Shown here: in pieces, positions 9,674-33,213 of the stretch
How positions within the stretch are numbered: position 1 is the first letter of the stretch
How the letters are laid out: every line of letters begins with the position of its first letter
UHGV virus genome: UHGV-0334900
DNA from: a virus
Direction: 5' to 3' (one strand)
DNA: 33,936 nucleotides
Notes under the pieces: model-generated
Told to the model about the DNA's origin: nothing
Seen by the model: only the letters and a program-made list of their open reading frames with translations
Databases searched by the model: none
Program-made: the position numbers and the translations under genes

Positions 9674-10861
9674 ATGGCAGGCATCATCAAACGCAATAAC
9701 AAATGGGTGGCCGTCTTCCGCTCCCTGGACGGCAAAGAGCTTCGGAAAACCACCGGCATCGACGTGGTTCCCAAGGCTCTGCTTCCGGGAGCCAATAAGA
9801 AATCAATCATGTCCCAGAATGAAGCACGGGCGCGGCTGGTGGCCCAGGAGATGGAGAAAGAAGCCCGGTACGGGGTTTTCGACTTGGACAAGGTGAAGGC
9901 CATTGCCGGGGACCAGGCCGGCGTGCTGAAAGCCACCATGAACGGCATGACGTTAACCCGGTTCCTCTTTGACTGGCTGGACGGGAGGAAAAACAAGAAG
10001 CGGGCCTATGAGCGGGACGGCATGGCCGTCCGCAGGCTTCTGGCGTTCCTGGGGGACCGGCGGAATATGCCGCTGGCCGCCCTGAATAAAGGGATGGCGA
10101 AGGATTTTGTAGAAACGGAATTGGAGCGCGTTTCCGCCGGAACCGTCATCCGCTATGTGTCCACGCTCTCCACCGCGTTCAATGCCGCTGTAGACCGGGA
10201 GATTCTTCCCCGGAATCCGTTCCGGGGCGTCATGCCTTCCCGGGCGGACCACCAGGCGGAAAAGCAGCTGCGCGGCGCGTTCACGATGGAGGAAGTGAAT
10301 ACCATCATTGAACGGTTCCCGGATGAATGGCCGGATCTGGTGCGGGTGTGCCTCTACACCGGAGGCCAGCGCCTTGGAGACCTGGCGACGCTGAAATGGG
10401 AGCAGATTGACCTGAAGCACTCCTTCCTGTTCATGACCACGCAGAAGAGCCGGCGCCGCATGAACAAGCCGATCATCCAGCCCTTGAAAGAGGTTCTGGA
10501 AAGGCGTCTGCTCAACCGGGTGAATGATTACGTGTTTCCCCTGTCTGCGCTTCGCCATGCCCATGCGGGAGGGCGTTCGGACAAGCTTTCCACGGAGTTC
10601 ACGACATTGTTGAAAACGTACGGAATCATCCGGGAGATGCCCGGGGAAGTGAGAGGCGACCGGCACCGTCTTTCGGAAAAGAGCTTCCACAGCTTACGGG
10701 CGACCGCCGTGACCGTCCTGCGCCTGGCAGGGGTGTCCCCGGATTTGTGCCGCTTCATTGTCGGACACGACTCCGAAGAGATTGAGCGGGTGTATTTCCG
10801 CCCGGATTCGGCGGACGTTCAGGATGCGATGAGCAAGATTGCCGTCGGCTTGGCCCGTTAG
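9674..10861 (+). CDS. int: Tyrosine recombinase / phage integrase
   Basis: Catalytic-domain residues R in QRLGDLATLKWEQIDL, HSLRATAVTVL (the H-x-x-R box), and HDSEEIERVYFR (tyrosine nucleophile region). Preceded by a SAM-like N-terminal domain. 395 aa. Confidence 0.9.
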   Translation: MAGIIKRNNKWVAVFRSLDGKELRKTTGIDVVPKALLPGANKKSIMSQNEARARLVAQEMEKEARYGVFDLDKVKAIAGDQAGVLKATMNGMTLTRFLFDWLDGRKNKKRAYERDGMAVRRLLAFLGDRRNMPLAALNKGMAKDFVETELERVSAGTVIRYVSTLSTAFNAAVDREILPRNPFRGVMPSRADHQAEKQLRGAFTMEEVNTIIERFPDEWPDLVRVCLYTGGQRLGDLATLKWEQIDLKHSFLFMTTQKSRRRMNKPIIQPLKEVLERRLLNRVNDYVFPLSALRHAHAGGRSDKLSTEFTTLLKTYGIIREMPGEVRGDRHRLSEKSFHSLRATAVTVLRLAGVSPDLCRFIVGHDSEEIERVYFRPDSADVQDAMSKIAVGLAR

Positions 10862-10873
10862 CCTTCCTTCCCT

Positions 10874-10914
10874 AAGACGATCATGTTGTTGACATCAACA
10901 AGATGATCCGTCTT
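10874..10914. terminator. Imperfect 19-bp inverted repeat between the convergent int and glycosyltransferase genes (bidirectional terminator or candidate att core)
   Basis: AAGACGATCATGTTGTTGA | CATCAACAAGATGATCCGTCTT. It fills the whole 33-nt convergent intergenic region and overlaps the GT stop codon. No T-run. Confidence 0.35.
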
Positions 10915-11650
10915 CTTCCTTGTGGAACCGGTAACGGTACAAGGCGTCCATGGCGCGGGCGCGTTCGGATTTGGGAATGTTCGTAGGGCGAGGGTTGCCG
11001 AAGGTGACCATCCAGAAGCCGGCGTATTTTTTCGGCGTTACGGCAATGCTGAACCAGTTCCAGGCCGTCCATTTCCCTTCCCGGTTGAAGGGCGTCCAGG
11101 GTTCGTCAAGCCTGATCCGCTCCGGGGGAAAGAGGCCCTGGATGGTCCGGCAGATCGTCAGGTCTTCGGGAGCGAGCGCGGGGATGTCAGCCTGCATCAG
11201 TTCCTCCGCCGCCAGTCTGGCCGCCCGTCCGCTGATTGCGTAACACGGCCCATAGGCGGAGCGTTCGGACGGGTGGCTGGGGACCTGGTAGCCGGAGGCG
11301 TGCAGAGCCAGCCCGTTGCGCTGCATGTCACGCACCCATCCGCCCGACAACAGGAGCGTATCCGAGTCGATTTTGACGATGACGTCATTTTCTTCCGCTT
11401 CCCCGGCCAGCGTGGAAATGATGCCCCGGACGCATTCCGGGCCGCGCAGGTTGCCGTTCCTTGTCCAGCCGGTTTGACAATACCTTGCCCCGGTTAACAT
11501 AAGGACGGATCTGACGCGTTCAGGAAGCGGAGCGGCGCTGTCGTCCACAACCGTAATGACGGCTTCAGGGAGGGCCGCCGCAGCGCACCGGACGCAGACG
11601 AGGGCTTCATCCGCGTCTCCGGCATAGGTGAATAAATAGATTCTGATCAT
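10895..11650 (-). CDS. GT-A-fold (family-2-like) glycosyltransferase, candidate lysogenic-conversion gene
   Basis: N-terminal Rossmann-like strand with VITVVDDSAAP (the DD nucleotide-sugar motif) and IVKIDSDTLL (a DxD metal-binding motif). Last gene before int, the classic position of O-antigen-modifying gtr genes. Confidence 0.5.
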   Translation of the reverse strand: MIRIYLFTYAGDADEALVCVRCAAAALPEAVITVVDDSAAPLPERVRSVLMLTGARYCQTGWTRNGNLRGPECVRGIISTLAGEAEENDVIVKIDSDTLLLSGGWVRDMQRNGLALHASGYQVPSHPSERSAYGPCYAISGRAARLAAEELMQADIPALAPEDLTICRTIQGLFPPERIRLDEPWTPFNREGKWTAWNWFSIAVTPKKYAGFWMVTFGNPRPTNIPKSERARAMDALYRYRFHKEEDGSSC

Positions 11651-11658
11651 GGTGTTTG

Positions 11659-13803
11659 TTAAGCTGGTCCGTAGGGGTAGAAGGTTCCTCCGAAGACGGG
11701 TATCTGGATCATTCCCAGCGCGTATTGCGTCACCTGGTCGTCTTCGATGTCGGCTATCAAAAAGGAATAGTCGAAGTTGACACCCGGTTTTTCTTCGGCC
11801 AGCCTGATAGGATAGACGGTCCCCGGGATGCCCGAGACGTCAACGCCCGTCAATTTGGCGTCCTGGTCGAAGTGGACGTTGAGCCATACTTCCCCGCTGG
11901 TTTGGGGGATCGTTACCCACGAGGAACCGGAACCGCCCCCCTGCGGGTATTTGCCGAGCAGCGAGCCGTTCAGGTAGAGCGCGCCGGGCTTCATTTGCGC
12001 CCCGGTGATGGCCCCCTCCGTATCTTTCTGCAAGCGCACTTGGAAGCCGTATTCCGGCGCGGGCGTGGATTCTCCCGTGGATTTGGTGATGTGCTGGCTG
12101 ATGGTGGGGGATTCCGGCTTGGGGTCAAAGCCGTATTCCGTCGATTCCGGCGCCCCCTGCATGTTTTCCAGCGTGGAGGATCTGCGTGACGTGGCATTCA
12201 CGCGCTTCAATTCTACCCATTCTTCAATCCCCAGTTGTTCCGGCGCGCCGTAGGACAGGGAAATCACGTTGGTCTGCAGGTCTCGGCTCACCGTCTGAAT
12301 CATGGTGTTGATGTTCTGCCAGGCGGGGTTGCCTCCCAGCAGCGAGACGCGCCGGCCCATGTATTGCCGCGTCTGCGCTTCTCCCAGCGCGACAAAGGAA
12401 ATAGAGCCGTCCCAGGGCAATTCCTGCATGGATTCCCACACCGTTTTGGCAATGTCCCCATAGGGCACGCCTTCCGAGGGTTGGGGCGATTCCCCTTCTT
12501 CCGGCCCGTTGGAGGGCTGTTCCCCGTTGTAGATGCCGTCAATGGGGTAGCTCGCGTAGGGGCGGTCCATGGTGACCAGATCCACCGAGAATTCTTCCCA
12601 GAAGCAGGGCACGCCTCCCAGCGTTCCCACATTTTTGAATTTCTCCCTCCACTTGGCAGGCGCGCTTTCCGGGATGGCGAGACGCTGCTTGACGGTAGCG
12701 TTGCACCATTGCGGGCGGAGGGATTTGGTATGAATTTGCCCGTCCGTCAGTTCATAGCCTGTGGCGGAGGTGTTGTAGCCTCGCGGCTTGTCTTCCTCCG
12801 TTCCGTCCCAGGGCTTCCCGGTGATGGTCGGATCCTGGTCATAGACGGCGATGGACCCTACATCTTTCATCCACGGGAAATGATGTTGCCAGAAACTGTT
12901 GATCATGTCGTTCTGGTCAATCCTGGTCCCCGTCACTTTCATGCGCTGGTAGGACAGGCTGCCGGCCCTGGTTCCCTGCACCGGCTGCGGATCTTCTACC
13001 GGCTCCCCCGTAGAACTGTATTTGGAATAAAAGAAGTCTACTGACGTACGGTAAACAATGGAGTGCGGCAAGGTCGGGTCCCCGTCTTCCGGGTATTTGG
13101 ACAGGTAGGAGACGCGGTAGCCGTTGCTTCCGGTCGTTTCCGCGATAATCGCCACGCAGGGCGGAACGAGGTCGCCCCGGGGGATCAGGGAGACGTCCAT
13201 GGACTTGACCGTCGCCGTCGGCTGCAAGGGAAGCGCAATGGGCGTCAGGGCGTCATAGTCCGTGATGATGAGCTTGGGGCGCGCTTCGCTGTAGTCGTAG
13301 TACGAGACCATCCGGGGCGACCAGCGGCGGATGGATTGAAGGAGGCTTCCCAGCGTATCGCAGGAGGCGTTCCACGGAATCAGCATCTTGTCATCGCTGA
13401 TGCGCAGCTCGTAGTCCGCCGGGTGGTGCTTGGCGAGATTCAGCACCCGGGAGAGTGCGGAAGAAATGCTTATCTTGGGGATGATTCCGTCCCCTCCGCT
13501 GACTTTATTCCACATGGAAAAGACCGGCTTCCATTCGGAATCCAGCGCAAAGCAGTTGTCCAGCCAATACCAGGGATCGGAAAAGACGATTTTCCAGGCA
13601 CGGGATGAGCCGCTGTAGGTCTTTTCGATGCTGGAAACGAGGCCGGAAAGAATGGTGTTCCCGTTTTGGGAGATGGTGACGGTATCGAACTGTTGGAAGG
13701 GCAAGACCTCCCCCAGCGTGCGGACGGGATAAACCGCGGTGATGGCGGAGGCGGAAAAGCTTTGCTGGTCGTGGGTCAGGCTCGACGGCTTGAGGGCCAG
13801 CAA
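11659..13803 (-). CDS. Large distal tail / baseplate-hub protein (Dit/Tal or host-specificity J-like)
   Basis: 714 aa, immediately downstream of the tape-measure block. Rich in Gly/Pro/Trp and beta-rich segments. C-terminal Gly-rich stretch QGGGSGSSW. Confidence 0.5.
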   Translation of the reverse strand: MLALKPSSLTHDQQSFSASAITAVYPVRTLGEVLPFQQFDTVTISQNGNTILSGLVSSIEKTYSGSSRAWKIVFSDPWYWLDNCFALDSEWKPVFSMWNKVSGGDGIIPKISISSALSRVLNLAKHHPADYELRISDDKMLIPWNASCDTLGSLLQSIRRWSPRMVSYYDYSEARPKLIITDYDALTPIALPLQPTATVKSMDVSLIPRGDLVPPCVAIIAETTGSNGYRVSYLSKYPEDGDPTLPHSIVYRTSVDFFYSKYSSTGEPVEDPQPVQGTRAGSLSYQRMKVTGTRIDQNDMINSFWQHHFPWMKDVGSIAVYDQDPTITGKPWDGTEEDKPRGYNTSATGYELTDGQIHTKSLRPQWCNATVKQRLAIPESAPAKWREKFKNVGTLGGVPCFWEEFSVDLVTMDRPYASYPIDGIYNGEQPSNGPEEGESPQPSEGVPYGDIAKTVWESMQELPWDGSISFVALGEAQTRQYMGRRVSLLGGNPAWQNINTMIQTVSRDLQTNVISLSYGAPEQLGIEEWVELKRVNATSRRSSTLENMQGAPESTEYGFDPKPESPTISQHITKSTGESTPAPEYGFQVRLQKDTEGAITGAQMKPGALYLNGSLLGKYPQGGGSGSSWVTIPQTSGEVWLNVHFDQDAKLTGVDVSGIPGTVYPIRLAEEKPGVNFDYSFLIADIEDDQVTQYALGMIQIPVFGGTFYPYGPA

Positions 13804-13854
13804 GTCATTGATGGTGATGTCGTGGTTCCTGCTGTTTGTAAAATGGTTAGTTGT

Positions 13855-14307
13855 TTATTTCTTGTCGGCGATCTTTTGGAGCAACGTCAGAACCTTTGCA
13901 CACCAGAAACAGCCAAGGCAGGAGAAGGCCCCGGAAACCAAGTAAATAAAGCCTATTTCGGTTTGCTTTTCTTCTACATTGTTACAAAACAATATAAATC
14001 CAGCAATGAGGGCAATTATGCCTACAAAACGAAATATACCTTCAACTGTTCGGAAAAGTTCTAGAAAAAGTTCTGCATCGCTTTTTTGCGTTTCCAGTTG
14101 CTTATTCAGTTCTTGTTTTTTCTCTAATAGCATTTCTTCTCTATAATGCTTATACACACTTCCAAAAGAAAACCACTCTTGCCCGCCTTCAGGGCAAACA
14201 AGAGTTTCTCTGTTGATTTCGCCCGCATCAAAACGTTCTGCAAGTTCTTCAAGAGAGTAAGGCCCCTCAGCATTGTTTGAGTTGGAAGCGACGTAATAAT
14301 TAATCAT
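13855..14307 (-). CDS. DUF4339/GYF-like-domain membrane protein encoded on a low-GC insert (moron) inside the tail module
   Basis: N-terminal EGPYSLEELAERFDAGEINRETLVCPEGGQEWFSFGSV matches the DUF4339 pattern (GP.s.eeL......G.i...TlVW..Gm.eW....v). Two C-terminal TM helices. The surrounding region 13830-14350 is strongly AT-rich compared with its flanks. Confidence 0.5.
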   Translation of the reverse strand: MINYYVASNSNNAEGPYSLEELAERFDAGEINRETLVCPEGGQEWFSFGSVYKHYREEMLLEKKQELNKQLETQKSDAELFLELFRTVEGIFRFVGIIALIAGFILFCNNVEEKQTEIGFIYLVSGAFSCLGCFWCAKVLTLLQKIADKK

Positions 14308-14353
14308 AGTGGTATGGTGCTATAAACCGGCGTTAGTGCAAGCCTAAAAGCTG

Positions 14354-16216
14354 TTAAAAGCCTCCGGCAAGCCGGTTTATCCCGGTTTGCAATCTTCCGT
14401 TGCCCTTCTGTACTATTTTCAAGATTTCCTCGAATTTAGCATCTACATATTTTTTTGTATCTGCTTGCACGGCATTTACCTTGCCGGCCTGTGCTGTTGC
14501 TATGGTTTGTAAATAATCCATCAATTTTTTTGCGTATTGTCCATTTTCTCTCAATACGTTTTCCATAACATCAAACACGCCTTGAAGCTCGCTGGGGTCG
14601 ATTTCCGTATCTTTGTCCGAAATGCTTTCCGCAAGGCGTTTCTTCCCTGCATTCAAAGCTTCGCGGGCAGCCGCAATCCGGGCGCGTTGCTGGGCGGTAG
14701 GATGCTCGGGAACGCCTTCAAGAGTAATGCCGCGGATCATCGCCTGCTGCCTCTCGGCGGTCTGCTTTTGAGCCTCCCTTTCGGCCCGTTCACGAGCCTT
14801 CTTTATTTTTTCTTCATTTCTTCGGGCTTCCTCTGCTTCTTCCCTGTCTCTTTTCAAGTTAAATGATTTAACCTTGCCGGCGTCTATTTGGTTTTGAATA
14901 GCGTCGATTTGTTCCATGTTTTTGATAGATGCTTCGGTCGAAACCATTGCATCCCCCAAAGAACCGGCTTTCTCCGTTAAATCATCAAACTGTTTTTTCG
15001 CGGCGTCCGTATTCTTCTGAAACTCTTCTAATGCATCTGATGCTTGTTTGAAGCGACTGCTTATGTCAGTTCCTTGTCTATAGTCGAATTCAAGATTTAC
15101 GCCGCCGGCTCTTAACGAATCCTGATATTCTTCCAATCTAGATTGGACAGCATTGCCTTCTTCTTGTGCTGCTGAACGAGTAGCTAAAAGACGTTCTTGC
15201 TTTGCTTGAAGTTCTTCAAGCTTTTCTCTATATCTTCTGCCTTCGGAGTTAGGAACCCTTGCTAGAGATGAAGTTTTATATATTTGATTATTTAGATCAT
15301 CGTTTTCCGCCGTAATCTTATCTATCCTCCGTTGAACGCGTTCTTGCTGCTGCAAAAGTCCAAGAATATTTTGAAGAGAAGGAAGGTTCCCTTGCTTGAA
15401 CTGCATATCAAAAGCATGAGCTTCCGCGGCATCTCGGGCCTTGACTGCCTCCGCAAGCTGTTTGCCAATATCCATATAGTTAGCCTGCTCCACGCCTAAA
15501 TCACGATTGCGGATTTTCTGGTCCAGATTCTGATCAACCATCATGAGGCCGTAGTCCCGCTGCCTCTTGGTGATTCTTCCTTCCTGGTAGTCATTTTCCA
15601 AGTTGACGCGGTCAAGTTCCGCCTGGCGTGTATCAACGCCTTTCTGGCGGGCCGCTTCCTCCCGTCTCAAGCGAATTTGTTTTTCAAGCTCTTCCGTCTG
15701 ATATTCAAATTCCCGGGTAATGCCCTTTACATAGTTTTGATACTCTTCATTAACGGTCTTGGTGCGTTCTTGCTGGTTGAATTCCTGCAAAGCCTGATAA
15801 CTTGCCCGGATAGCCTGACGAGAAGCTTCGGCAATCTCTTTGCTATGCTCCTTCATTTTTTTGGCGAGATCCGCCGACTTGTCTTCCGTTTTTCCCATCC
15901 AATCGTAAAGCTTCGCCCCGGCGAGGACGGCAAGCGACATCGCGCCGGCCAGACCTGCGCCGCCTCCGAATCCTATCACCAGCCCGGGAATGTTGTTCAG
16001 GATGCCCTTGATGCCGTACTGCACGTCGTCCATGAAATAGGCGACTTGCAGCAACCCCTGTCCCATGTTCTTCACGCTCCTGGTTGCCTGCTGGCTCCCC
16101 TTATCAAGTTGTTCCGTCGACTTGTTCAGCGCGTCGATCTGCTGTTTTGCTTCTTCCACGCCTTTTCCGTCCAGCGTGGACTTGAGTTTGATTTCGATTT
16201 CTTTCTTGGTGGCCAT
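14354..16216 (-). CDS. Tail tape-measure protein
   Basis: 620 aa. Hydrophobic Gly-rich segment NIPGLVIGFGGGAGLAGAMSLAVLAGA near the N-terminus, followed by about 500 aa of predicted coiled coil (E/K/Q/R/A-rich heptads). Preceded by a small chaperone-like ORF. Confidence 0.65.
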   Translation of the reverse strand: MATKKEIEIKLKSTLDGKGVEEAKQQIDALNKSTEQLDKGSQQATRSVKNMGQGLLQVAYFMDDVQYGIKGILNNIPGLVIGFGGGAGLAGAMSLAVLAGAKLYDWMGKTEDKSADLAKKMKEHSKEIAEASRQAIRASYQALQEFNQQERTKTVNEEYQNYVKGITREFEYQTEELEKQIRLRREEAARQKGVDTRQAELDRVNLENDYQEGRITKRQRDYGLMMVDQNLDQKIRNRDLGVEQANYMDIGKQLAEAVKARDAAEAHAFDMQFKQGNLPSLQNILGLLQQQERVQRRIDKITAENDDLNNQIYKTSSLARVPNSEGRRYREKLEELQAKQERLLATRSAAQEEGNAVQSRLEEYQDSLRAGGVNLEFDYRQGTDISSRFKQASDALEEFQKNTDAAKKQFDDLTEKAGSLGDAMVSTEASIKNMEQIDAIQNQIDAGKVKSFNLKRDREEAEEARRNEEKIKKARERAEREAQKQTAERQQAMIRGITLEGVPEHPTAQQRARIAAAREALNAGKKRLAESISDKDTEIDPSELQGVFDVMENVLRENGQYAKKLMDYLQTIATAQAGKVNAVQADTKKYVDAKFEEILKIVQKGNGRLQTGINRLAGGF

Positions 16217-16234
16217 GGTGGTAGATGTGGAGGG

Positions 16235-16516
16235 TTATCGTTGAGCGCGGGCTTCTTCGATGACGAAAGCGGGCAGTTTCCCGGCGGTGAGGGCGTTGCG
16301 GGATTCTTCCACGCGTTTCTGCAAGGATTCCAGGATCATCATATCCCGGATGATGACGCCGAAGGCATGGGAGGGATCGACGCCGGCGGCTTGGGAGGCA
16401 GCAAAGACGCTTTCCTTCAATTCCTGCGCCGCCTGGTTCAGGTTCGGGTTCTTGCTGCATTCTTCGGCGAATTCAATGAAAAGCCGTTCTATTCCGTTTT
16501 GTTGTTGTTTGTTCAT
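16235..16516 (-). CDS. Small acidic protein upstream of the tape-measure gene (tail assembly chaperone-like position)
   Basis: 93 aa, helical and acidic, located between the Ig/BACON tail protein and the TMP as gpG-type chaperones are. No slippery sequence was identified. Confidence 0.3.
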   Translation of the reverse strand: MNKQQQNGIERLFIEFAEECSKNPNLNQAAQELKESVFAASQAAGVDPSHAFGVIIRDMMILESLQKRVEESRNALTAGKLPAFVIEEARAQR

Positions 16517-16530
16517 GATGGATTATTCTG

Positions 16531-18045
16531 TTAAGATGGGTATTCGGTGGAAGTGTAGCGGATGACGAGGGATAATCCGAACGTGCGCCCGGGAGCGTCC
16601 GCCGGCATGGGGTAGATGGCATTTCCGAGGCCGTCAAACGCCTGCGGATTGGCCAGCATGGCATGCTGCTCATAAATGCCGTTCTGGTTTTCCACGACCA
16701 GCTGCCAGTCCGAACGGATTTCCACGCCGGGAGAAAACGTCCATTTCGCGTTTCCGCCCTCTCCGGTGAAAACCGCCTCGCTGCTGGTCGCCAGAAGAGA
16801 GGCAGACCCGTTTTCCACCCGGTAAAGCGTTAACGTGCCGGAATTGGCGCTGGTGGGTTTCGTCGTGATGATTTCCTGCAGCGTCAGTCCCTTTCCTTCG
16901 GGGTTGCCTTCCGGGAAGTCCGGATAAACGTCCGAGGGAATAAACCTCCATGAGGAATAACTCATCGGATTATCCGAGTATTCCCCTCCGGGCGGGGGAA
17001 GCTGATGATTTCGGGTGACCAGTCCTGCCCTCAATACGCGGATTGTCTGTTTTAACCCGGAATCCGCCTGTGTCGCGGAAACGACGACGGAGCCGGCCGC
17101 TCCTTCATTGGGTGCCGCGGTTAACGTGAAGGACCCGTTATTTCCGTTCGTGATATCGGAGATGACAACGGAAGAGCTGGGAGAATTGGGCGTCCAGTCA
17201 ACGCTGACTTCCCCCGGGTCATAATAGGAAGTCACCTGGACCTGGTAGCTTCCGCCAGTAACGGGAACCTGTACCTGGGTTGGAGCAAGGTTGAAGGAGT
17301 AAGAGGGTTGAAGCTGACGAAATTCAACCTCAACAGTCTGTCCTGTTCCGTCCTGAATGACCTGGAGCGACATGGTCCTGTCCTGGTCTCCTTCATTGGC
17401 CGCGACGATAACCTTAAATGTCCCGTTGTTGCCGTTGACGATATCGGAAACGGTTAATCCTTCGGAAACGTCGGCAATCTGCCACCCCTGCCCTACCGGT
17501 CCAGGGCTGAACGACGATTCCACATTAATGGTGTATTCGCCTCCCTTGACGGGAACGTCGAAAGAAGAGGGCGTCACGCTGAATATCCAGTTGGAATTGT
17601 CCGGGGTCCGGTCGGTGACCGTCATGGTCAGCGTGACCAGCAGGCACAGATAGCCGTCTTCGGGAGACGGCGGAGGAACAAAGTTCTCCGTCTCAAACTG
17701 GTAGCCGGTGATGACGGCGGCAAAACGCCATTGCGGCTGGTCGGCAAATTGCAGGTACAGATACCCGTTCTGGTTGCTGGCCAGCCACAGGGCAAGATTC
17801 TCCTGCCAGGAGGCCATATCCTGATAATCCGTGAACCAGCGGTAAAACGCGATGGTGCGCTGCTCCACGGCGCTTCCCAGCCCCTGCGCGAACGCTCGCG
17901 GTCCGTCTACCAGCGACGTTTCAAATGCCTCCATGGATCCGCCGAAGCGGGGAGGCTCCGGCGTATCGTCCCAGAGGTTGAGCAGCTGGATCTGGTTGCC
18001 GGCGGCGGAAACGTAGCGCGCTGCGTAGGGGGCCTGGTAGGTCAT
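16531..18045 (-). CDS. Tail protein with two tandem Ig-like/BACON-like domains (candidate major tail or tail-decoration protein)
   Basis: Two about 90-aa repeats with the BACON/Big signature: V(P)V.GG.Y...V.S......W......S..I.NGNNG.F.V...AN.G..R......, in residues about 150-330. Distinct N- and C-terminal domains. Confidence 0.5.
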   Translation of the reverse strand: MTYQAPYAARYVSAAGNQIQLLNLWDDTPEPPRFGGSMEAFETSLVDGPRAFAQGLGSAVEQRTIAFYRWFTDYQDMASWQENLALWLASNQNGYLYLQFADQPQWRFAAVITGYQFETENFVPPPSPEDGYLCLLVTLTMTVTDRTPDNSNWIFSVTPSSFDVPVKGGEYTINVESSFSPGPVGQGWQIADVSEGLTVSDIVNGNNGTFKVIVAANEGDQDRTMSLQVIQDGTGQTVEVEFRQLQPSYSFNLAPTQVQVPVTGGSYQVQVTSYYDPGEVSVDWTPNSPSSSVVISDITNGNNGSFTLTAAPNEGAAGSVVVSATQADSGLKQTIRVLRAGLVTRNHQLPPPGGEYSDNPMSYSSWRFIPSDVYPDFPEGNPEGKGLTLQEIITTKPTSANSGTLTLYRVENGSASLLATSSEAVFTGEGGNAKWTFSPGVEIRSDWQLVVENQNGIYEQHAMLANPQAFDGLGNAIYPMPADAPGRTFGLSLVIRYTSTEYPS

Positions 18046-18051
18046 GGGCGG

Positions 18052-18587
18052 TTACTGGTTGAGGTAGTCCTTCACCCCTTCCGCAATGGCTTCGGCAATG
18101 CGGAAGGGATGGTCCTTCAAGATAGAGGCGTTTTCAGGATTGGTGATGAAGCCGCATTCGCACAGCACCCACGGGCAGCGGGTCTTTTTCAGGACGGCCA
18201 GTCCCGGGCGCGACTGCACAGTGTTGGCCCGTCCGGGCAGCAACCGGGAAAGAGGTTCCGCGATGCATATGGCAAGCCGGCTCCCTTTGACGCTTCCCGG
18301 GTAGAAACATACATGGGCGCCATGAGCCTGGGGATTGTCGGACGAATCGCAATGCAATGAAATTCCGAAGTCATAGCCTCCTTCGTTGGAGGCCTTGATG
18401 GTAGCGTTCAAGTCCTGGGCATTGGTCATCTTCGGGTAATCAATCACATCCACCCTGGCTCCCAGCCGTTCCAGCATGGGGGCGAGGCGTTCCGCGATCG
18501 TCGCCGCGACGGCGTGTTCTTCAAGCCCGTTCCCGCGGGTTCCAGTGTTGTTGGCGTGGCCTATATCAATGGCTATTTTCCTGATTA
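18052..18587 (-). CDS. N-acetylmuramoyl-L-alanine amidase (Amidase_3) endolysin. The true start lies upstream of the track ATG at 18477
   Basis: Conserved IAIDIGHANNTGTRGNGLEEHAVAATIAERLAP, containing the first zinc-ligand His, is encoded in frame at 18575-18478. An AAAGGAGA Shine-Dalgarno sits at 18595-18588. There is no ATG/GTG/TTG between the TAA at 18596-18594 and 18477; ATA 18587, ATC 18584 or ATA 18575 are the only candidates. The downstream part has the ISLHCDSS and GFITN Amidase_3 blocks. Confidence 0.7.
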
Positions 18588-18796
18588 TTCTCCTTTAATG
18601 GTTGATTGTTAATATGATTGAACTTGTAAGAAAAACTTTACAGTTGGTCAGTAGTCCGCTCATCGGACGAACACAAGGCTAGCAATGGGGAAGCAGAACG
18701 CGGCAATGCCCGCCGCCGTGTCTCCGCAAGCGGCAAAAACGCCGGCCATCACGCACCCCATCAGCGGCAAAAGAACGGAAGGATTCAGCAGCTTAT

Positions 18797-19093
18797 TCAC
18801 TTTTCCAGTTTCTTTTCTATGTTTTCGATTCGGACGGCAAGCAGTTGGATCGCCTTGGCGGTCTCCACCTGGGCTTGTGTCTGCATGGTCATCAAATCAC
18901 AAAGGCGGTCATTGTGGTGACCCATGACGTCCCCGATGTACCAGCAGGCAGCGCCGCAAATGGCCAGCGAGAGCATGACGCAGGCCCAGGCGGGGAAAGC
19001 CTTGGCGAAGTCGAAGAAACGGGCCGGTACTTCGGAGAGCTTACACATGGTCTTATTTCTTGGAGGGGATGACCTGCACGACGGGCGGAACAT
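18797..19093 (-). CDS. Single-TM protein with C-terminal coiled coil (class-III-holin-like or i-spanin-like); likely starts at internal ATG 19048
   Basis: FAKAFPAWACVMLSLAICGAACWYIGDV TM helix followed by the helical segment QTQAQVETAKAIQLLAVRIENIEKKLEK. It overlaps the upstream gene in another frame and lies just upstream of the endolysin. Confidence 0.4.
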   Translation of the reverse strand: MFRPSCRSSPPRNKTMCKLSEVPARFFDFAKAFPAWACVMLSLAICGAACWYIGDVMGHHNDRLCDLMTMQTQAQVETAKAIQLLAVRIENIEKKLEK

Positions 19094-19337
19094 CCGTTTC
19101 CGGCTGGGCCTGACTGTAGGAGATATGCCCCGGTTCCAGCACCAGGCAGGAGCCGTCCTTGCATACCACCGTCTTTTCCGGCGTCACGTCCACGGAATGA
19201 CCGCAGCCAGTCACGGTGATATAGCCAGCAGCGGCCAACGCCCCGATAATGGCACCGATGACGTACTTGACCCAATTCCCCCAGCGGGCGGATGCCGCCT
19301 GCTGGGCCTTTTCAATGTCTTGTTTATTGATGTTCAT
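19053..19337 (-). CDS. Small membrane/lipoprotein-like lysis-cassette protein (holin/antiholin or o-spanin-like)
   Basis: Hydrophobic WVKYVIGAIIGALAAAGYITVTG-C ends in a lipobox-like VTGC. 94 aa. Its 3' end overlaps the next gene by 41 nt out of frame, a Rz/Rz1-style arrangement. Confidence 0.35.
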   Translation of the reverse strand: MNINKQDIEKAQQAASARWGNWVKYVIGAIIGALAAAGYITVTGCGHSVDVTPEKTVVCKDGSCLVLEPGHISYSQAQPETDVPPVVQVIPSKK

Positions 19338-19340
19338 GGT

Positions 19341-19745
19341 TTATTGTTTAGTGAAATGCTTGAAAAACTCCACGGCGGCGGGTTCCGTGATGATAAAAGC
19401 CGGGTAGTCCGAGGCTGTAAAAATCCTGCGACCTTTTGTCTCCGCATGGACGGCTTCAACAGTCAAAGACACTGCATCAATCAGTGTATAGGTTCCGTCT
19501 TCCGCAAGGGTCAGGGCATTTTTCCCCAGCCTTGCCCACACCTGAACAGCCTGCCACGGCTCCGACAATCCCACCAGCGCGGCAACGACGGCCTGCATGG
19601 CCGGTGCCTGCTCCGCTGGTATCTCGTCCTGATTAAAGCGGGCCGGAGGTCTATAACCGCCCTTGTCCTGATAAATGGGCGTCAGGGTGAATTCATCCCA
19701 CTGTCCCGGCTGGGGGAACTGAATCTGTATCTCTGCATTATTCAT
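19341..19745 (-). CDS. Hypothetical protein downstream of the tail fibre (candidate fibre assembly chaperone)
   Basis: 134 aa. Start overlaps the tail-fibre stop (ATGA coupling at 19742-19745). Confidence 0.3.
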   Translation of the reverse strand: MNNAEIQIQFPQPGQWDEFTLTPIYQDKGGYRPPARFNQDEIPAEQAPAMQAVVAALVGLSEPWQAVQVWARLGKNALTLAEDGTYTLIDAVSLTVEAVHAETKGRRIFTASDYPAFIITEPAAVEFFKHFTKQ

Positions 19746-28239: not shown

Positions 28240-29662
28240 CGGTAAATCCTTTCATGAGGCCGGCGTAAATCATTTGCTGCAGCTGTTCATAGGCATCGGG
28301 CGGAATGAGGGCTTTTTCCGGCTCCCTGTTGGCCGCCGCCGTCACCGGAATGGGGTCCCGCGTGTCCTCGATCGACATGCCGATCTTTTCTTCGATTTCG
28401 GTCTTCTCGGGGCGGACGCCTCCGTCGGCAAGCGCGGCGATTTCCTCGGCCTTCTGCAGCGGCGTCTGGACGGTGTCAAAGGTGATGTGGAGGCGGGCCA
28501 GCGGTTCGCCGTCTCCCAGGACAAGCGGGCTGATGGCGGTGTTAAAAGCTTCGGCTACTTTGGAGCAGACCGCGGAGACGACCGAATTCCAGCTGTCCGT
28601 GTGCGCTCCCCCGGCCAGCGTGCCGGAGCCTGATTCATTCAGGACGGTCAGAGTGCCGGCCATGACAAACCGCACCTGGTCCTTGTCGGACATGTTGATT
28701 CGGGACAGGAAATAGTTTTCGTTGATGTTGGAGGCTTTCAACGGTTCTGCAGTGCAGCCGGGAGGCAGCACGATGGAGGCTCCCGATTTGAGTTCCTCGC
28801 ACGCTCGTTGCAGCGCGACCATGATGTCGGGGCTCGCGTCCTTCGGAGCCGTGATGATGGCCGGGGCGCTCCCGTAGCGGTCCATGTGATTGTCCCAGGT
28901 GACTTTGGCGTGATTCCGCTCAAAAGAGGCGCGGGTTGCCGGGAAAAGAATGGGGTTCCGGTGCTCCATGACCACGAGCGTTTCATCTTCCACGCTTTCG
29001 CCGGTGTCGACGCCGATGTAACATTGAGGGTTAAACTGCCATTCGTTCAACTCTCCGGGGCGGACCCAATAGCGTTGGGGGATGAATTCAAAGCGGCGGC
29101 CCCAGGCGTCCTCAATGTATTGGAGGTGGGCGTAACCGTAAAACATGGCGGAAGCCAGCTGCCCAAAGGCCTGCTGAAGTCCGGTGACGGAGTGATAGAA
29201 TTCTTCCAGCGCGTTTTGCTGACGCTGGGCTTCGGGGCTGTCGTCCGCCGCGTCAATCTTCCAGCCCTGCATGGAGACGCTTTCGATAAGCCGGGAATAG
29301 AGCATGCCCAGGAGACCGTCCGAGTAGATGACCTCGTCCCAGATGAGCATTTGTCGGGCAAAAGCTCCCCGCCGCGCTTCGTTCCGGGCGTCAATCAGGG
29401 TTTGCAGGTCGGCTCCCTGTAACGGATCCCAATATTCAAACCATTGGGGCTGGTTGGGCTTCCTGCTCTGTTCCGTCAAGGCTCGCCGGGTGAGTTCCGT
29501 TTCAAGCTCCTTGATTCTGGTCTCCTGTTGGGCGACCAGCTTCGGGGCGTTGAGGATATTTTTGACGGCGTTAAACCTGAGGCTAAAGAAAAGGTGGTTG
29601 CAGGGGAAGGAGTTGGACCTTCGATTCAGGGACAGGAACCCCGCGTGATACCGTTTCACCAC
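28214..29662 (-). CDS. Portal protein (Mu gp29/DUF935-like)
   Basis: 482 aa between TerL and the protease/scaffold. Overall resemblance to DUF935 portals. The N-terminal 30 aa are low-complexity and the true start is uncertain. Confidence 0.6.
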   Translation of the reverse strand: MVKRYHAGFLSLNRRSNSFPCNHLFFSLRFNAVKNILNAPKLVAQQETRIKELETELTRRALTEQSRKPNQPQWFEYWDPLQGADLQTLIDARNEARRGAFARQMLIWDEVIYSDGLLGMLYSRLIESVSMQGWKIDAADDSPEAQRQQNALEEFYHSVTGLQQAFGQLASAMFYGYAHLQYIEDAWGRRFEFIPQRYWVRPGELNEWQFNPQCYIGVDTGESVEDETLVVMEHRNPILFPATRASFERNHAKVTWDNHMDRYGSAPAIITAPKDASPDIMVALQRACEELKSGASIVLPPGCTAEPLKASNINENYFLSRINMSDKDQVRFVMAGTLTVLNESGSGTLAGGAHTDSWNSVVSAVCSKVAEAFNTAISPLVLGDGEPLARLHITFDTVQTPLQKAEEIAALADGGVRPEKTEIEEKIGMSIEDTRDPIPVTAAANREPEKALIPPDAYEQLQQMIYAGLMKGFTDDQYETNQ

Positions 29663-29715
29663 CCTGCGATTAATTACATATCTTCATATATTGATACGTT
29701 GATATATTGTCAACC

Positions 29716-32394: not shown

Positions 32395-32423
32395 TTGCAA
32401 TACTAAACAATGTTTAGTATATT
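32395..32423 (+). promoter_or_regulatory. Sigma70-type promoter (-35 TTGCAA, 17-bp spacer, -10 TATATT) with an embedded perfect 19-bp palindromic operator
   Basis: TTGCAA at 32395-32400. TATATT at 32418-32423. The palindrome TACTAAACA-A-TGTTTAGTA at 32401-32419 fills the spacer and overlaps the -10. Preceded by an A/T-rich UP-like tract. Confidence 0.55.
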
Positions 32424-32493
32424 GACCTTGTTGACGGGAGGTAAGGGACCGAACGAAGACACAATCCAAAACCAAATCAGAAAGAACAAGACA

Positions 32494-33213
32494 ATGACTA
32501 AAAACGAATTAACAGAAATTCTCCAACTGCACGAAATGTGGCTGAACGAGGAAGAAGGCGGCGCTCAGGCCAAATTTGAAGACCTCGACCTCAGGGGGCT
32601 CGACTTTAGGGGTGCTAACTTAATCAAGGCTGACTTTAAGGACGCCGACTGTTCCGGAGTTGATTTCACAGGGGCCGACTTGAGATGTGCCGATTTCACC
32701 GGGGCCAATCTAACCGGGGCCGATTTCGCCGGGGCCAATCTGAAATGGGCCAATTTTTACAAGGCCCATGTAACCGGAGCCAGATTTAACGGGGCTATCA
32801 TAGACTGCGCCGACTTTAGGTGGGCCCGCGGGATTGTCGACCTGACCGGAGAGAAAACAGAAACACAATCCAAAAGAAAGACCAAGAAAATGAACGACAA
32901 CAAAATCATCACCACGGAAGACGGCGAAGAAATCAATCTGAGCGCGCTTGAACGCGAATTCGGCAGCTATGATTTTGAAGGACACACCTACTATGCTGCT
33001 CGCCAAATGGAATTAACCAATCGTCTTTTTGCCGGATGCTACAACGATGCGGAAGAAGGAGAGGAATACATCTCTGAATACTCCGCGCCCGGATATGACG
33101 AAAACGGCAACCCCGTGGAAATCTTCATGACTTTCACGCAGGTGAAAGGTGAAGAGATAGACCCGGAAAACCTTAACTGGTTCCAGGACTCCGACCGCGT
33201 TGAAGCCCTCTAA
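32494..33213 (+). CDS. Pentapeptide-repeat protein (Qnr/MfpA-like right-handed quadrilateral beta-helix, DNA-mimic type) with an acidic C-terminal domain
   Basis: N-terminal ELTEILQLHEMWLNEEEGGAQA, then 14 or more consecutive A(D/N)LxG-type pentapeptides (FEDLD LRGLD FRGAN LIKAD FKDAD CSGVD FTGAD LRCAD FTGAN LTGAD FAGAN LKWAN FYKAH VTGAR FNGAI IDCAD FRWAR). The track start at 32410 lies inside the promoter's -10/operator, so ATG 32494 is preferred. Confidence 0.7.
   Translation: MTKNELTEILQLHEMWLNEEEGGAQAKFEDLDLRGLDFRGANLIKADFKDADCSGVDFTGADLRCADFTGANLTGADFAGANLKWANFYKAHVTGARFNGAIIDCADFRWARGIVDLTGEKTETQSKRKTKKMNDNKIITTEDGEEINLSALEREFGSYDFEGHTYYAARQMELTNRLFAGCYNDAEEGEEYISEYSAPGYDENGNPVEIFMTFTQVKGEEIDPENLNWFQDSDRVEAL

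What the first reader, a model, noticed from the sequence alone, without database searches (positions are those of the whole stretch)
13830..14350. Low-GC insert inside the tail gene block encoding a DUF4339/GYF-domain two-TM membrane protein
The base composition drops sharply to an AT-rich stretch between the tape-measure gene and the 714-aa distal tail gene. This is the signature of a recently acquired moron. The product has an N-terminal DUF4339/GYF-like motif (EGPYSLEELAERFDAGEINRETLVCPEGGQEWF) and two C-terminal TM helices, and is unlikely to be a virion component. Possible roles are a superinfection-exclusion or membrane-defence factor expressed from the prophage, or a host-interaction protein.
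Basis: partly seen in the sequence, partly recalled or inferred. Interest (0 to 1): 0.55.

Follow-up and report, generated by a model that had tools for sequence, protein, structure and literature searches.

The report
Membrane GYF protein beside phage tape-measure gene
A small membrane protein gene sits next to the tape-measure-like gene in every related Akkermansia phage examined, so it is not a recent insert; it may block entry of rival phages, but that role is untested.

Summary
The ORF is real: window 13855-14307 on the minus strand, 150 aa. It has an N-terminal Pfam GYF_2 domain, a long helix and a two-helix membrane hairpin. It is AT-rich (GC 0.40, GC3 0.38; neighbours have GC3 about 0.7).

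"Recently acquired moron" is not supported.
- The low-GC island runs 13802-15913. It also covers the 3' 84% of the upstream 620-aa tape-measure-like (TMP-like) gene.
- The same dip is present in all 40 related Akkermansia phage loci scored.
- A census anchored on the 714-aa gene found a GYF_2 two-TM gene in this slot in 26 of 26 close relatives. These fall into three sequence types less than about 30% identical. Each type is paired one-to-one with a TMP-like C-terminal type (35/35).

A second phage group has rearranged tail genes. There the gene still abuts the TMP-like 3' end, usually on the opposite strand as the last prophage gene beside the attachment site. A 13-nt upstream motif travels with it.

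Best reading (confidence about 0.4): an inner-membrane protein with its own expression signal that interferes with DNA entry by phages carrying the cognate TMP-like cassette. This resembles P22 SieA or HK97 gp15. Holin, TMP-partner and unrelated cargo roles remain open. No expression or functional data exist.

The parts
13855..14307 (-). GYF_2 two-TM ORF, 150 aa, ATG start, TAA stop
   Evidence: ORF and translation. (Pfam GYF_2, 42.9 bits). (AF2 pLDDT 79.4). (the exact protein is indexed in 43 blocks of the collection; the three places shown have the same context).
14155..14298 (-). GYF_2 domain, residues 4-51, predicted cytoplasmic
   Evidence: Foldseek matched only GYF domains (GIGYF1/2, Smy2, GltJ 7z3c), probability 1.00. 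Invariant residues across 41 homologues are Y4, Y5, G15, P16, Y17 and W45.
14047..14166 (-). Charged helical linker, residues about 48-87. Its length and sequence vary between homologues.
13861..14046 (-). TM hairpin with short basic tail, residues 88-149. TM2 carries the invariant motif SGAFSCLGCFWCAKV. The short acidic loop and basic tail imply N-in/C-in topology (inference).
14308..14353 (-). 46-nt spacer between the TMP-like stop and the GYF start. There is no Shine-Dalgarno-like sequence. It contains the conserved motif TTTTAGGCTTGCA at 14337-14349.
   Evidence: In about 1 Mb (both strands) of related loci the motif occurs 13 times, always 42 or 44 nt upstream of a GYF start on the same strand.
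14354..16216 (-). 620-aa TMP-like gene: N-terminal Gly-rich hydrophobic segment followed by a long coiled coil
   Evidence: 38% identity over 517 aa (E=2e-96) to the protein annotated as tape measure in phage Chambord. 669 homologues; every source name among the 120 listed is Akkermansia.
13802..15913 (.). Low-GC island (GC 0.446). It equals the exchangeable cassette: TMP-like codons about 101-620, the spacer and the GYF ORF.
   Evidence: The boundary coincides with the end of the N-terminal stretch shared between cassette types.
11659..13803 (-). 714-aa conserved downstream gene of unknown function. It forms the right flank of the cassette.
10895..11650 (-). 251-aa gene, last of the block
9674..10861 (+). 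Tyrosine integrase. It marks the end of the integrated prophage in relatives.
18052..19745 (-). Lysis cassette about 3.7 kb upstream in the operon: 134-aa protein, 94-aa lipoprotein, 83-aa one-TM coiled-coil protein, 46-aa two-TM ORF, Amidase_3 endolysin

Best explanation
The ORF encodes a small inner-membrane protein. Two C-terminal helices anchor it, and its N-terminal GYF_2 peptide-binding domain and charged linker face the cytoplasm.

It is the fixed partner of the variable C-terminal part of the TMP-like (DNA-injection) protein. The two form one AT-rich cassette that Akkermansia phages exchange as a block.

Proposed mechanism (inferred, not shown): the gene has its own expression signal and is made in the lysogen. 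At the inner membrane the protein interferes with the channel or entry step built by an incoming phage's TMP-like protein of the cognate type. The result would be type-specific superinfection exclusion. Swapping the whole cassette would change both the 'key' and the 'lock'.

Shown: architecture, position, universality, co-variation, orientation in relatives, and the upstream motif. Inferred: topology, expression in lysogens, any interaction with the TMP-like protein, and exclusion itself.
For: 1. Architecture. The GYF_2 domain passes Pfam's cut-off and has the GYF fold, followed by a TM hairpin.

2. Linkage to the injection gene survives rearrangement. Group A order is TMP-like, GYF, 714, 251 in the ten distinct arrangements seen first. 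Group B order is 735, 245, TMP-like, GYF.

3. Independent transcription unit in group B. In 12 of the 18 loci scored in the census the gene is on the opposite strand, convergent with the TMP-like gene, as it is in the Chambord-type prophages L003, L008-L010 and L022-L025. Where the prophage end could be read it is the last gene, next to a tRNA-type attachment site, and a hairpin plus T-run follows it.

4. Private upstream signal. TTTT[AG]G[AG]CTTGCA occurs 13 times in about 1 Mb. Every copy is 42-44 nt upstream of a GYF start, whether the upstream DNA is TMP-like coding sequence (group A) or non-coding attachment-side DNA (group B). The gene has no Shine-Dalgarno-like sequence, unlike the amidase and 714-aa genes.

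5. Diversification pattern.
- Three GYF types less than about 30% identical occupy one slot.
- Their pairing with TMP-like C-terminal types is one-to-one, 35/35.
- The flanking 504-aa gene stays up to 99% identical and the 714-aa gene 89-95% identical across different cassettes.
- The same cassette types occur on different backbones.
- L001 carries an extra orphan GYF gene in tandem.

6. Accessory slot. Eight group B loci carry an unrelated 341-351-aa protein with N- and C-terminal TM segments and a coiled coil, at the same position and orientation. L024 and L025 add a Trypsin_2 gene behind the GYF gene.

7. Precedents.
- P22 sieA sits directly after ejection gene 16 in P22-like prophages. It has three types about 25% identical, and escape mutations map to the ejection proteins (PMC10883804).
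- The HK97 gene 15 moron lies beside the tape-measure gene and blocks entry in a tail-dependent way (PMC3594210).
Against: - There are no expression data and no functional data.
- There is no similarity to any PADLOC defence model or any PHROG family, and no known exclusion protein has a GYF domain.
- In this window the gene is co-directional with the late operon. The gaps are 46 and 51 nt, no sigma-70-type promoter was found and no terminator follows. It should therefore be made late in infection whatever else happens.
- Retention is 26 of 26 in group A. That is unlike optional morons: sieA is present in 22 of 66 P22-like phages. It hints at a function the phage itself needs.
- Almost the whole protein is predicted to be cytoplasmic, leaving only a loop of roughly 5-15 residues in the periplasm.
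- The one-to-one pairing can be explained by adjacency alone, because the types share no homology in which a crossover could occur.
- The motif has only a weak resemblance to a -35 element, and no convincing -10 element follows.
Confidence: 0.4

Rival explanations
1. Holin or lysis-timing protein. It would be a class II-like (N-in/C-in, two-TM) membrane protein that accumulates late and permeabilises the inner membrane for the cytoplasmic amidase.
For: - It has two TM helices rich in small residues and a short basic C-terminal tail.
- In group A it lies in the late operon.
- The endolysin of relatives has no signal or SAR sequence (L014).
- Neither lysis cassette has a clear universal holin. 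Each shows a lipoprotein plus a one-TM coiled-coil pair (spanin-like). The 46-aa two-TM ORF is present in only some relatives.
- It is the only two-TM protein besides the 46-aa ORF in this window's late region.
Against: - It lies 3.7 kb and three genes away from the endolysin in group A, and far from it in Chantilly.
- In 12 of the 18 group B loci scored it is on the strand opposite to the late operon, and where the prophage end was read it is the last gene.
- An N-terminal folded domain plus linker of about 85 aa is atypical for holins.
- One phage carries two divergent tandem copies.
- Some group B phages carry a 350-aa coiled-coil membrane protein in its place.
- This window has a 46-aa two-TM ORF right next to the amidase.
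Confidence: 0.15
2. A lytic-cycle partner of the TMP-like protein. It could be a membrane-anchored docking or holding factor for tail assembly. Alternatively it could be a self-protection factor that stops the producer cell's own membrane-active TMP-like protein from inserting prematurely. It would be type-matched through the GYF domain.
For: - Retention is universal in group A (26/26).
- The gene is tightly packed directly after the TMP-like gene.
- Pairing with the TMP-like C-terminal type is strict.
- The TMP-like protein has a hydrophobic Gly-rich segment.
Against: - The opposite-strand, attachment-site-proximal position in most group B phages is hard to reconcile with stoichiometric co-expression.
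- It is replaced by an unrelated protein in 8 group B loci.
- L001 has an extra orphan copy.
- No known tail chaperone is an integral membrane protein (established knowledge).
Confidence: 0.15
3. Cargo that modifies host physiology or envelope, unrelated to phage entry. Its place beside the TMP-like gene would be historical.
For: - In group B it sits at the cargo end of the prophage, once together with a Trypsin_2 protease.
- A DUF4339 protein is also listed among membrane-protein cargo genes of an Akkermansia-like prophage fosmid (PMC3861447).
- Bacterial GYF domains act in cytoplasmic protein-protein recognition, for example GltJ.
Against: - It does not explain why the gene stays glued to the TMP-like 3' end through a rearrangement and strand inversion.
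- It does not explain why the types track TMP-like types.
Confidence: 0.15
4. One reading: a recently acquired low-GC moron inserted into an otherwise ordinary tail block of this particular phage.
For: GC3 is 0.38 in the ORF against about 0.7 in the flanks.
Against: - The dip and the gene are shared by every relative examined.
- The dip extends 1.6 kb into the TMP-like gene.
- There is no empty-site relative.
Confidence: 0.03

Closest known systems
P22 SieA (inner-membrane superinfection-exclusion protein of P22-like prophages)
   Same: - It is a prophage-encoded integral inner-membrane protein.
- Its gene holds a fixed position immediately after the last DNA-ejection protein gene.
- Several sequence types only about 25% identical occupy the same slot.
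- Its target is the ejection-protein conduit (PMC10883804).
   Different: - There is no sequence or fold similarity.
- No GYF domain is described for SieA, and more TM segments are described for it (one more in types B and C).
- sieA is present in only about a third of P22-like phages. The GYF gene is in 26 of 26 group A phages.
- SieA types did not differ in target specificity. Here the types track TMP-like types.
- Function here is untested.
HK97 gp15 (the original 'moron', a YebO-like exclusion protein next to the tape-measure gene)
   Same: - It is a small inner-membrane protein.
- It is encoded inside the tail operon beside the tape-measure gene and has deviant GC.
- It blocks entry in a way that depends on the incoming phage's tail region (PMC3594210).
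   Different: - gp15 is an add-on with its own promoter and terminator, and its homologues are mostly bacterial.
- The GYF gene has no terminator in this window, is universal among relatives, shares its deviant GC with the TMP-like gene, and has no named relative outside Akkermansia or its phages.
T5 Llp / pb5 (cognate exclusion lipoprotein encoded next to the receptor-binding protein gene)
   Same: From my own knowledge, not tested here: the exclusion gene is adjacent to the structural gene it matches, is often in the opposite orientation, is universal in the phage group, and co-varies with it as a cassette.
   Different: Llp is an outer-membrane lipoprotein that masks the receptor. The GYF protein is predicted to be an inner-membrane protein facing the cytoplasm, and its partner is a TMP-like protein, not a receptor-binding protein.
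SNIPE (inner-membrane-anchored nuclease that meets tape-measure proteins during injection)
   Same: [quoted passage not shown] This shows that a cytoplasm-facing domain can reach an injecting tape-measure protein.
   Different: [quoted passage not shown] The GYF protein has no enzymatic domain and no homology to it.
GYF domains (eukaryotic CD2BP2, GIGYF, Smy2; bacterial GltJ of Myxococcus)
   Same: It has the same fold (Foldseek probability 1.00, TM-score relative to target 0.5-0.67) and passes Pfam GYF_2. As in GltJ, the GYF domain is a cytoplasmic module of a membrane protein.
   Different: The ligand is unknown. No proline-rich partner was identified. The context is a phage.

Membership tests
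Pfam GYF_2 / DUF4339 (PF14237) | Sequence match above the curated gathering score | tested here: met
   42.9 bits against a cut-off of 25.8, E=4.3e-11, residues 4-51. Seven of the eight divergent slot-mates tested also pass, at 26.4-35.1 bits; L088 has no GYF_2 hit.
Pfam GYF_2 / DUF4339 (PF14237) | GYF fold | tested here: met
   In the AF2 model residues 1-50 have pLDDT 81-89. The top Foldseek PDB hits are all GYF domains, including GltJ 7z3c.
Pfam GYF_2 / DUF4339 (PF14237) | Binding of a proline-rich or other peptide ligand | not testable with these tools
   The conserved aromatic residues (Y4, Y5, Y17, W45) are compatible with a binding groove. No ligand was identified.
Moron (Juhala/Hendrix sense, as summarised in PMC3594210) | Present in some genomes and absent from close relatives ('more DNA on') | tested here: not met
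   26 of 26 group A loci found through the 714-aa gene have a GYF_2 two-TM gene in the slot. No empty site was seen. In group B, 8 loci carry a different gene in its place.
Moron (Juhala/Hendrix sense, as summarised in PMC3594210) | Base composition different from surrounding genes | tested here: met
   GC3 is 0.377 against about 0.7. However, the deviant block also includes 84% of the adjacent TMP-like gene.
Moron (Juhala/Hendrix sense, as summarised in PMC3594210) | Own promoter | tested here: inconclusive
   There is no sigma-70 consensus match in 13000-17000. A 13-nt motif found only 42-44 nt upstream of GYF starts travels with the gene in both phage groups. Akkermansia promoter rules are not known to me.
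Moron (Juhala/Hendrix sense, as summarised in PMC3594210) | Own terminator | tested here: not met
   No terminator-like site lies between the GYF stop (13855) and the 714-aa start (13803). In group B a hairpin plus T-run follows the gene; I read this by eye from the sequence.
Moron (Juhala/Hendrix sense, as summarised in PMC3594210) | Expressed from the repressed prophage | not testable with these tools
   This needs RNA-seq of lysogens.
Superinfection-exclusion inner-membrane proteins (SieA, gp15, Imm type) | Homology to a described exclusion or defence family | tested here: not met
   PADLOC gave no hit. PHROGs gave no hit. Fold searches of PDB and BFVD found only GYF domains or members of the same family.
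Superinfection-exclusion inner-membrane proteins (SieA, gp15, Imm type) | Integral inner-membrane location | tested here: inconclusive
   Two hydrophobic helices appear by hydropathy and in the AF2 model. No dedicated topology predictor or experiment was available.
Superinfection-exclusion inner-membrane proteins (SieA, gp15, Imm type) | Blocks DNA entry of superinfecting phage without blocking adsorption | not testable with these tools
   This needs phage challenge experiments.
Class II holin | Small protein with two TM helices (N-in/C-in) and a charged C-terminal tail | tested here: met
   However, it carries a cytoplasmic N-terminal region of about 85 aa, which is atypical.
Class II holin | Encoded with the endolysin in a lysis cassette and expressed late | tested here: not met
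   The endolysin is at 18052-18600. Three genes lie between the two. In most group B loci scored (12 of 18) the gene is on the opposite strand from the late genes.
Virion tail component | Similarity to known structural families, or detection in particles | tested here: not met
   There is no PHROG hit. Proteomics data for these phages were not found in the literature searched.

The most novel reading that the evidence does not exclude
Akkermansia phages may carry a two-gene 'lock-and-key' entry cassette. It would consist of the variable C-terminal region of the TMP-like injection protein plus a cognate inner-membrane GYF protein. The GYF domain would recognise that region from the cytoplasmic face and abort injection only for phages of the same cassette type.

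Whole-cassette swapping, and stacking of orphan GYF genes as in L001, would drive an exclusion-and-escape race among co-resident gut prophages. The persistently AT-rich composition would mark a dedicated exchange module. That module would be maintained apart from the rest of the genome, rather than reflecting recent import.
Probability: 0.2. Interest if true: 0.65.

Novelty: new variant of a known kind. Interest (0 to 1): 0.4.

Why it matters
Akkermansia muciniphila is a key human gut bacterium, and its phages are almost unstudied.

If this family is a type-specific entry blocker tied to the tape-measure-like protein, three things would follow.
- It would be a new exclusion family with a cytoplasmic peptide-recognition domain.
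- It would give a first function to bacterial and phage GYF_2 (DUF4339) membrane proteins.
- It would explain which Akkermansia prophages can coexist or displace each other.

The cassette also gives a clean test bed. Natural variants have near-identical backbones and swapped cassettes.

If it turns out to be a holin or an assembly factor instead, the finding is ordinary. Either way, low GC inside a structural block was a poor indicator of recent acquisition here.

Tried and rejected
- **Structure of the 714-aa neighbour.** The single-sequence AF2 model had pLDDT 31 and was unusable. A profile search of PDB sequences found nothing. The 'distal tail' label therefore stays unverified.
- **AlphaFold database fold search.** The afdb50 library was unavailable.
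- **Family scans.** PADLOC, PHROGs and NCBIfam gave nothing for the GYF protein.
- **Sigma-70 promoter scan.** It found 0 sites.
- **Terminator-like hairpin inside the ORF (14205-14175).** It has 13 pairs, but it is disrupted in most homologues that keep the same peptide. I rejected it as a chance feature of this lineage.
- **Homology search with the TMP-like protein.** Every source name among the 120 proteins listed (all at least 78% identical) is Akkermansia, so it gave no clue to an AT-rich donor.
- **Profile searches with the GYF family.**
  - Among the 120 best hits of the word-indexed search, every source name is Akkermansia or Caudoviricetes.
  - In the exhaustive library, full-length matches are few; most weaker hits match the GYF domain alone, often as repeats in larger proteins.
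  - The few distant full-length hits that carry a name are Akkermansia or Caudoviricetes.
- **The only paper mentioning DUF4339 with Akkermansia (stlA salt-tolerance fosmid).** It concerns a different 257-aa protein. DUF4339 is merely a neighbouring cargo gene.
- **Literature on Chambord and Chantilly.** It gives only a vContact2 morphology guess, with no proteomics or transcriptomics for these genes.
- **Amino-acid composition as the cause of the low GC.** I considered that the Lys/Glu-rich coiled coil might explain it. I rejected this as the sole cause because the drop is at third codon positions.

Full report
**1. What is there**

The window looks like a complete temperate Akkermansia phage genome.
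- The head genes are large terminase, a Mu-like portal, a protease/scaffold protein and a major head protein, at 25.7-31.1 kb on the minus strand.
- Next come a collagen-like fibre gene and a lysis cassette with an Amidase_3 endolysin.
- The block 504 aa, 93 aa, 620 aa, 150 aa, 714 aa, 251 aa follows, and then a tyrosine integrase.
- Early genes (RecT, a PD-(D/E)XK nuclease, a Bro-N/ANT antirepressor) fill 0.3-8.2 kb.

The flagged ORF is 13855-14307 (-), 150 aa.
- It passes Pfam GYF_2 (PF14237) at 42.9 bits against a cut-off of 25.8, over residues 4-51.
- An AlphaFold2 model built on 41 homologues has mean pLDDT 79.4. It shows a small alpha/beta domain at residues 1-47, one long helix at 48-86 and a helical hairpin at 88-112 and 116-149.
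- Foldseek against the PDB returns only GYF domains: GIGYF1/2, Smy2 and Myxococcus GltJ.
- Hydropathy finds two TM segments.
- The acidic loop (NNVEEKQTE) and the basic tail (QKIADKK) imply N-in/C-in topology. The GYF domain would then face the cytoplasm. This is inference.

**2. The composition claim**

The segment 13830-14350 has GC 0.401 against a window mean of 0.562. That is z = -2.67, the lowest 1% of windows. The drop is at synonymous sites: GC3 is 0.377 against 0.69-0.77 in the neighbours.

The dip does not stop at the ORF. The best-scoring low-GC segment is 13802-15913. It includes codons from about 101 to 620 of the upstream 620-aa gene. A second low-GC block covers the early/lysogeny region at 6-9.5 kb.

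**3. Relatives**

*First look.*
- A MAG prophage (L001; its 714-aa protein is 75% identical) has the same layout, the same dip, and two GYF two-TM ORFs in tandem in the slot.
- Akkermansia phage DTMo-2021a (L002; 89.5% identical) has the same layout and dip, with a 135-aa GYF two-TM ORF only 23% identical to this one.
- Contexts retrieved through diverse homologues always read amidase, 404-504 aa, (93-96 aa), TMP-like, GYF, 713-718 aa, about 250 aa, integrase. The TMP-like to GYF spacer is 46-47 nt in each.

*Unbiased census.* To remove ascertainment bias I anchored a viral-contig scan on the 714-aa family.
- All 26 group A loci with upstream sequence carry a TMP-like gene followed by a GYF-family ORF.
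- The divergent types tested pass Pfam GYF_2 on their own, apart from the weakest one, L088.

*Second phage group.* Group B includes Chambord and Chantilly. Its 735-aa homologue is only about 28% identical.
- The gene order is 735, 245, TMP-like, GYF.
- The TMP-like proteins of the two groups are 38% identical over 517 aa.
- Of the 18 group B loci scored in the census, the GYF gene is on the opposite strand, convergent with the TMP-like gene, in 12 and on the same strand in 6. The Chambord-type prophages found earlier (L003, L008-L010, L022-L025) also have it on the opposite strand, as the last gene of the prophage. In Chambord it lies about 230 nt from a tRNA-like attachment sequence.
- In 8 loci an unrelated 341-351-aa protein occupies the position on the opposite strand. 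It has N- and C-terminal TM segments with a coiled coil between them.
- Two loci add a Trypsin_2 gene behind the GYF gene.

*The dip is universal.* In all 40 loci scored, GC3 is 0.17-0.47 for the GYF gene and 0.20-0.52 for the last 300 TMP-like codons. It is 0.44-0.77 for the first 100 TMP-like codons. The gene is an old resident, not a recent arrival.

**4. A cassette**

- Between phages whose 504-aa protein is 98-99% identical and whose 714-aa protein is 89-95% identical, the TMP-like protein can drop to 18-34% identity and the GYF protein to 18-23%.
- The N-terminal stretch of roughly 110 TMP-like residues that the 613-628-aa forms share stays nearly identical. The composition switch falls at that same boundary.
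- Clustering gives three group A GYF types paired one-to-one with three TMP-like C-terminal types, 35 of 35, plus one orphan extra copy in L001.
- Two of the cassette types occur on more than one backbone lineage.

Adjacency, together with the lack of homology between types, can by itself explain the perfect pairing. The pairing is therefore compatible with a functional match but does not prove one.

**5. Expression signals**

- In the window there is no sigma-70-type promoter match and no terminator after the ORF. The ORF lacks a Shine-Dalgarno-like sequence.
- The motif TTTT[AG]G[AG]CTTGCA occurs once in the window, at 14337-14349.
- It occurs 13 times in about 1 Mb of related loci. Every copy is 42 or 44 nt upstream of a GYF start on the same strand. 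This holds whether the upstream DNA is the end of the TMP-like gene or attachment-side non-coding DNA.
- The gene therefore moves with a private 5' element. Whether that element is a promoter is untested.

**6. Function**

Nothing assigns a function by homology.

I favour an inner-membrane protein with its own expression signal that interferes with TMP-like-mediated DNA entry in a type-matched way (confidence about 0.4). The grounds are:
- persistent linkage to the injection gene through a rearrangement and a strand inversion;
- stand-alone placement at the attachment-site end in group B;
- several divergent types in one slot;
- a stacked orphan copy;
- replacement by another membrane protein in some relatives.

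The published parallels are P22 sieA, HK97 gene 15 and SNIPE.

Against this reading:
- retention in group A is universal;
- the gene sits inside the late operon here;
- the protein faces mostly the cytoplasm;
- there are no expression data at all.

The holin rival is not negligible, at about 0.15. Both lysis cassettes show a spanin-like pair and an endolysin without a clear universal holin. Distance from the endolysin, the opposite-strand arrangement, the large N-terminal domain and the tandem duplication all argue against it.

A lytic-cycle partner of the TMP-like protein and unrelated host-modifying cargo each get about 0.15.

**7. Verdict**

'Recent moron' is wrong. 'Accessory membrane protein, possibly exclusion' survives and is better founded than before.

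It is an uncharacterised family; every named member belongs to Akkermansia or to uncultured tailed phages. It resembles known exclusion genes in logic, not in sequence.

The persistent AT-rich island shared by unrelated cassette types is unexplained.

Noticed in passing
window 13802-15913, and the equivalent region in L001-L099: A persistent AT-rich island (low GC3) covers the variable part of the TMP-like gene plus the GYF gene. It appears in all 40 loci scored, across unrelated cassette types and two phage groups. From my own knowledge (not tested here), no Akkermansia genome is this AT-rich, so neither recent import nor amino-acid composition explains it.
   Followed up: partly
window 18478-18600 (-): The endolysin reading frame continues upstream of the 141-aa ATG ORF and encodes the conserved N-terminus (KIAIDIGHANNTG...). 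Where relatives have ATG the window has AGG. L005-L007 and L011-L013 are also called at 141 aa. This is either a non-canonical start or an inactivated amidase lacking its N-terminal catalytic region.
   Followed up: partly
window 18660-19745 (-): The lysis cassette contains a 134-aa protein, a 94-aa lipoprotein (lipobox VTGC, Pro-rich tail), an 83-aa one-TM coiled-coil protein (a spanin-like pair) and a 46-aa two-TM ORF with a lipobox-like LMGC. The 46-aa ORF is conserved at 74-91% identity in L001, L002, L018 and L020, frameshifted in L011 and not found in the other relatives searched. No clear universal holin is present.
   Followed up: partly
L001 9080-9972 (+): One relative carries two divergent GYF two-TM genes in tandem in the slot, of 140 and 150 aa. 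The second is an orphan type not paired with that phage's TMP-like type.
   Followed up: partly
L053, L054, L069, L071, L072, L076, L083, L099 (about 11.5-12.7 kb, - strand): In these group B phages the position after the TMP-like gene holds an unrelated 341-351-aa protein. It has an N-terminal TM segment, a long coiled coil and a C-terminal TM segment, and no Pfam family.
   Followed up: no
window 10895-11650 (-): The 251-aa last gene of the block begins MIRIYLFTYAGDADEA...VVDDS, which looks like a Rossmann or GT-A-type nucleotide-sugar enzyme. It has no Pfam, NCBIfam or PHROG hit. It is conserved after the 714/735-aa gene in both phage groups.
   Followed up: no
window 14175-14205 (-): A 13-pair hairpin followed by a T-run lies inside the GYF coding sequence. 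It is not conserved in homologues that encode the same peptide, so it is probably chance.
   Followed up: yes
window 29595-29668 (-): A tRNA-Arg(CCT) gene lies in the gap between the large terminase gene and the portal gene and overlaps the 5' end of the called portal ORF.
   Followed up: no
window 32410-33213 (+): A pentapeptide-repeat protein (267 aa) is encoded on the opposite strand beyond the terminase. It is possibly an accessory or anti-defence gene.
   Followed up: no
TMP-like genes of L015, L018, L020, L026 and others: The N-terminal part of the TMP-like gene also comes in alternative forms, with total lengths of 613-887 aa. In some loci (L015, L018) the longer form goes with loss of the separate 93-aa upstream gene. 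The gene is therefore mosaic at both ends.
   Followed up: no
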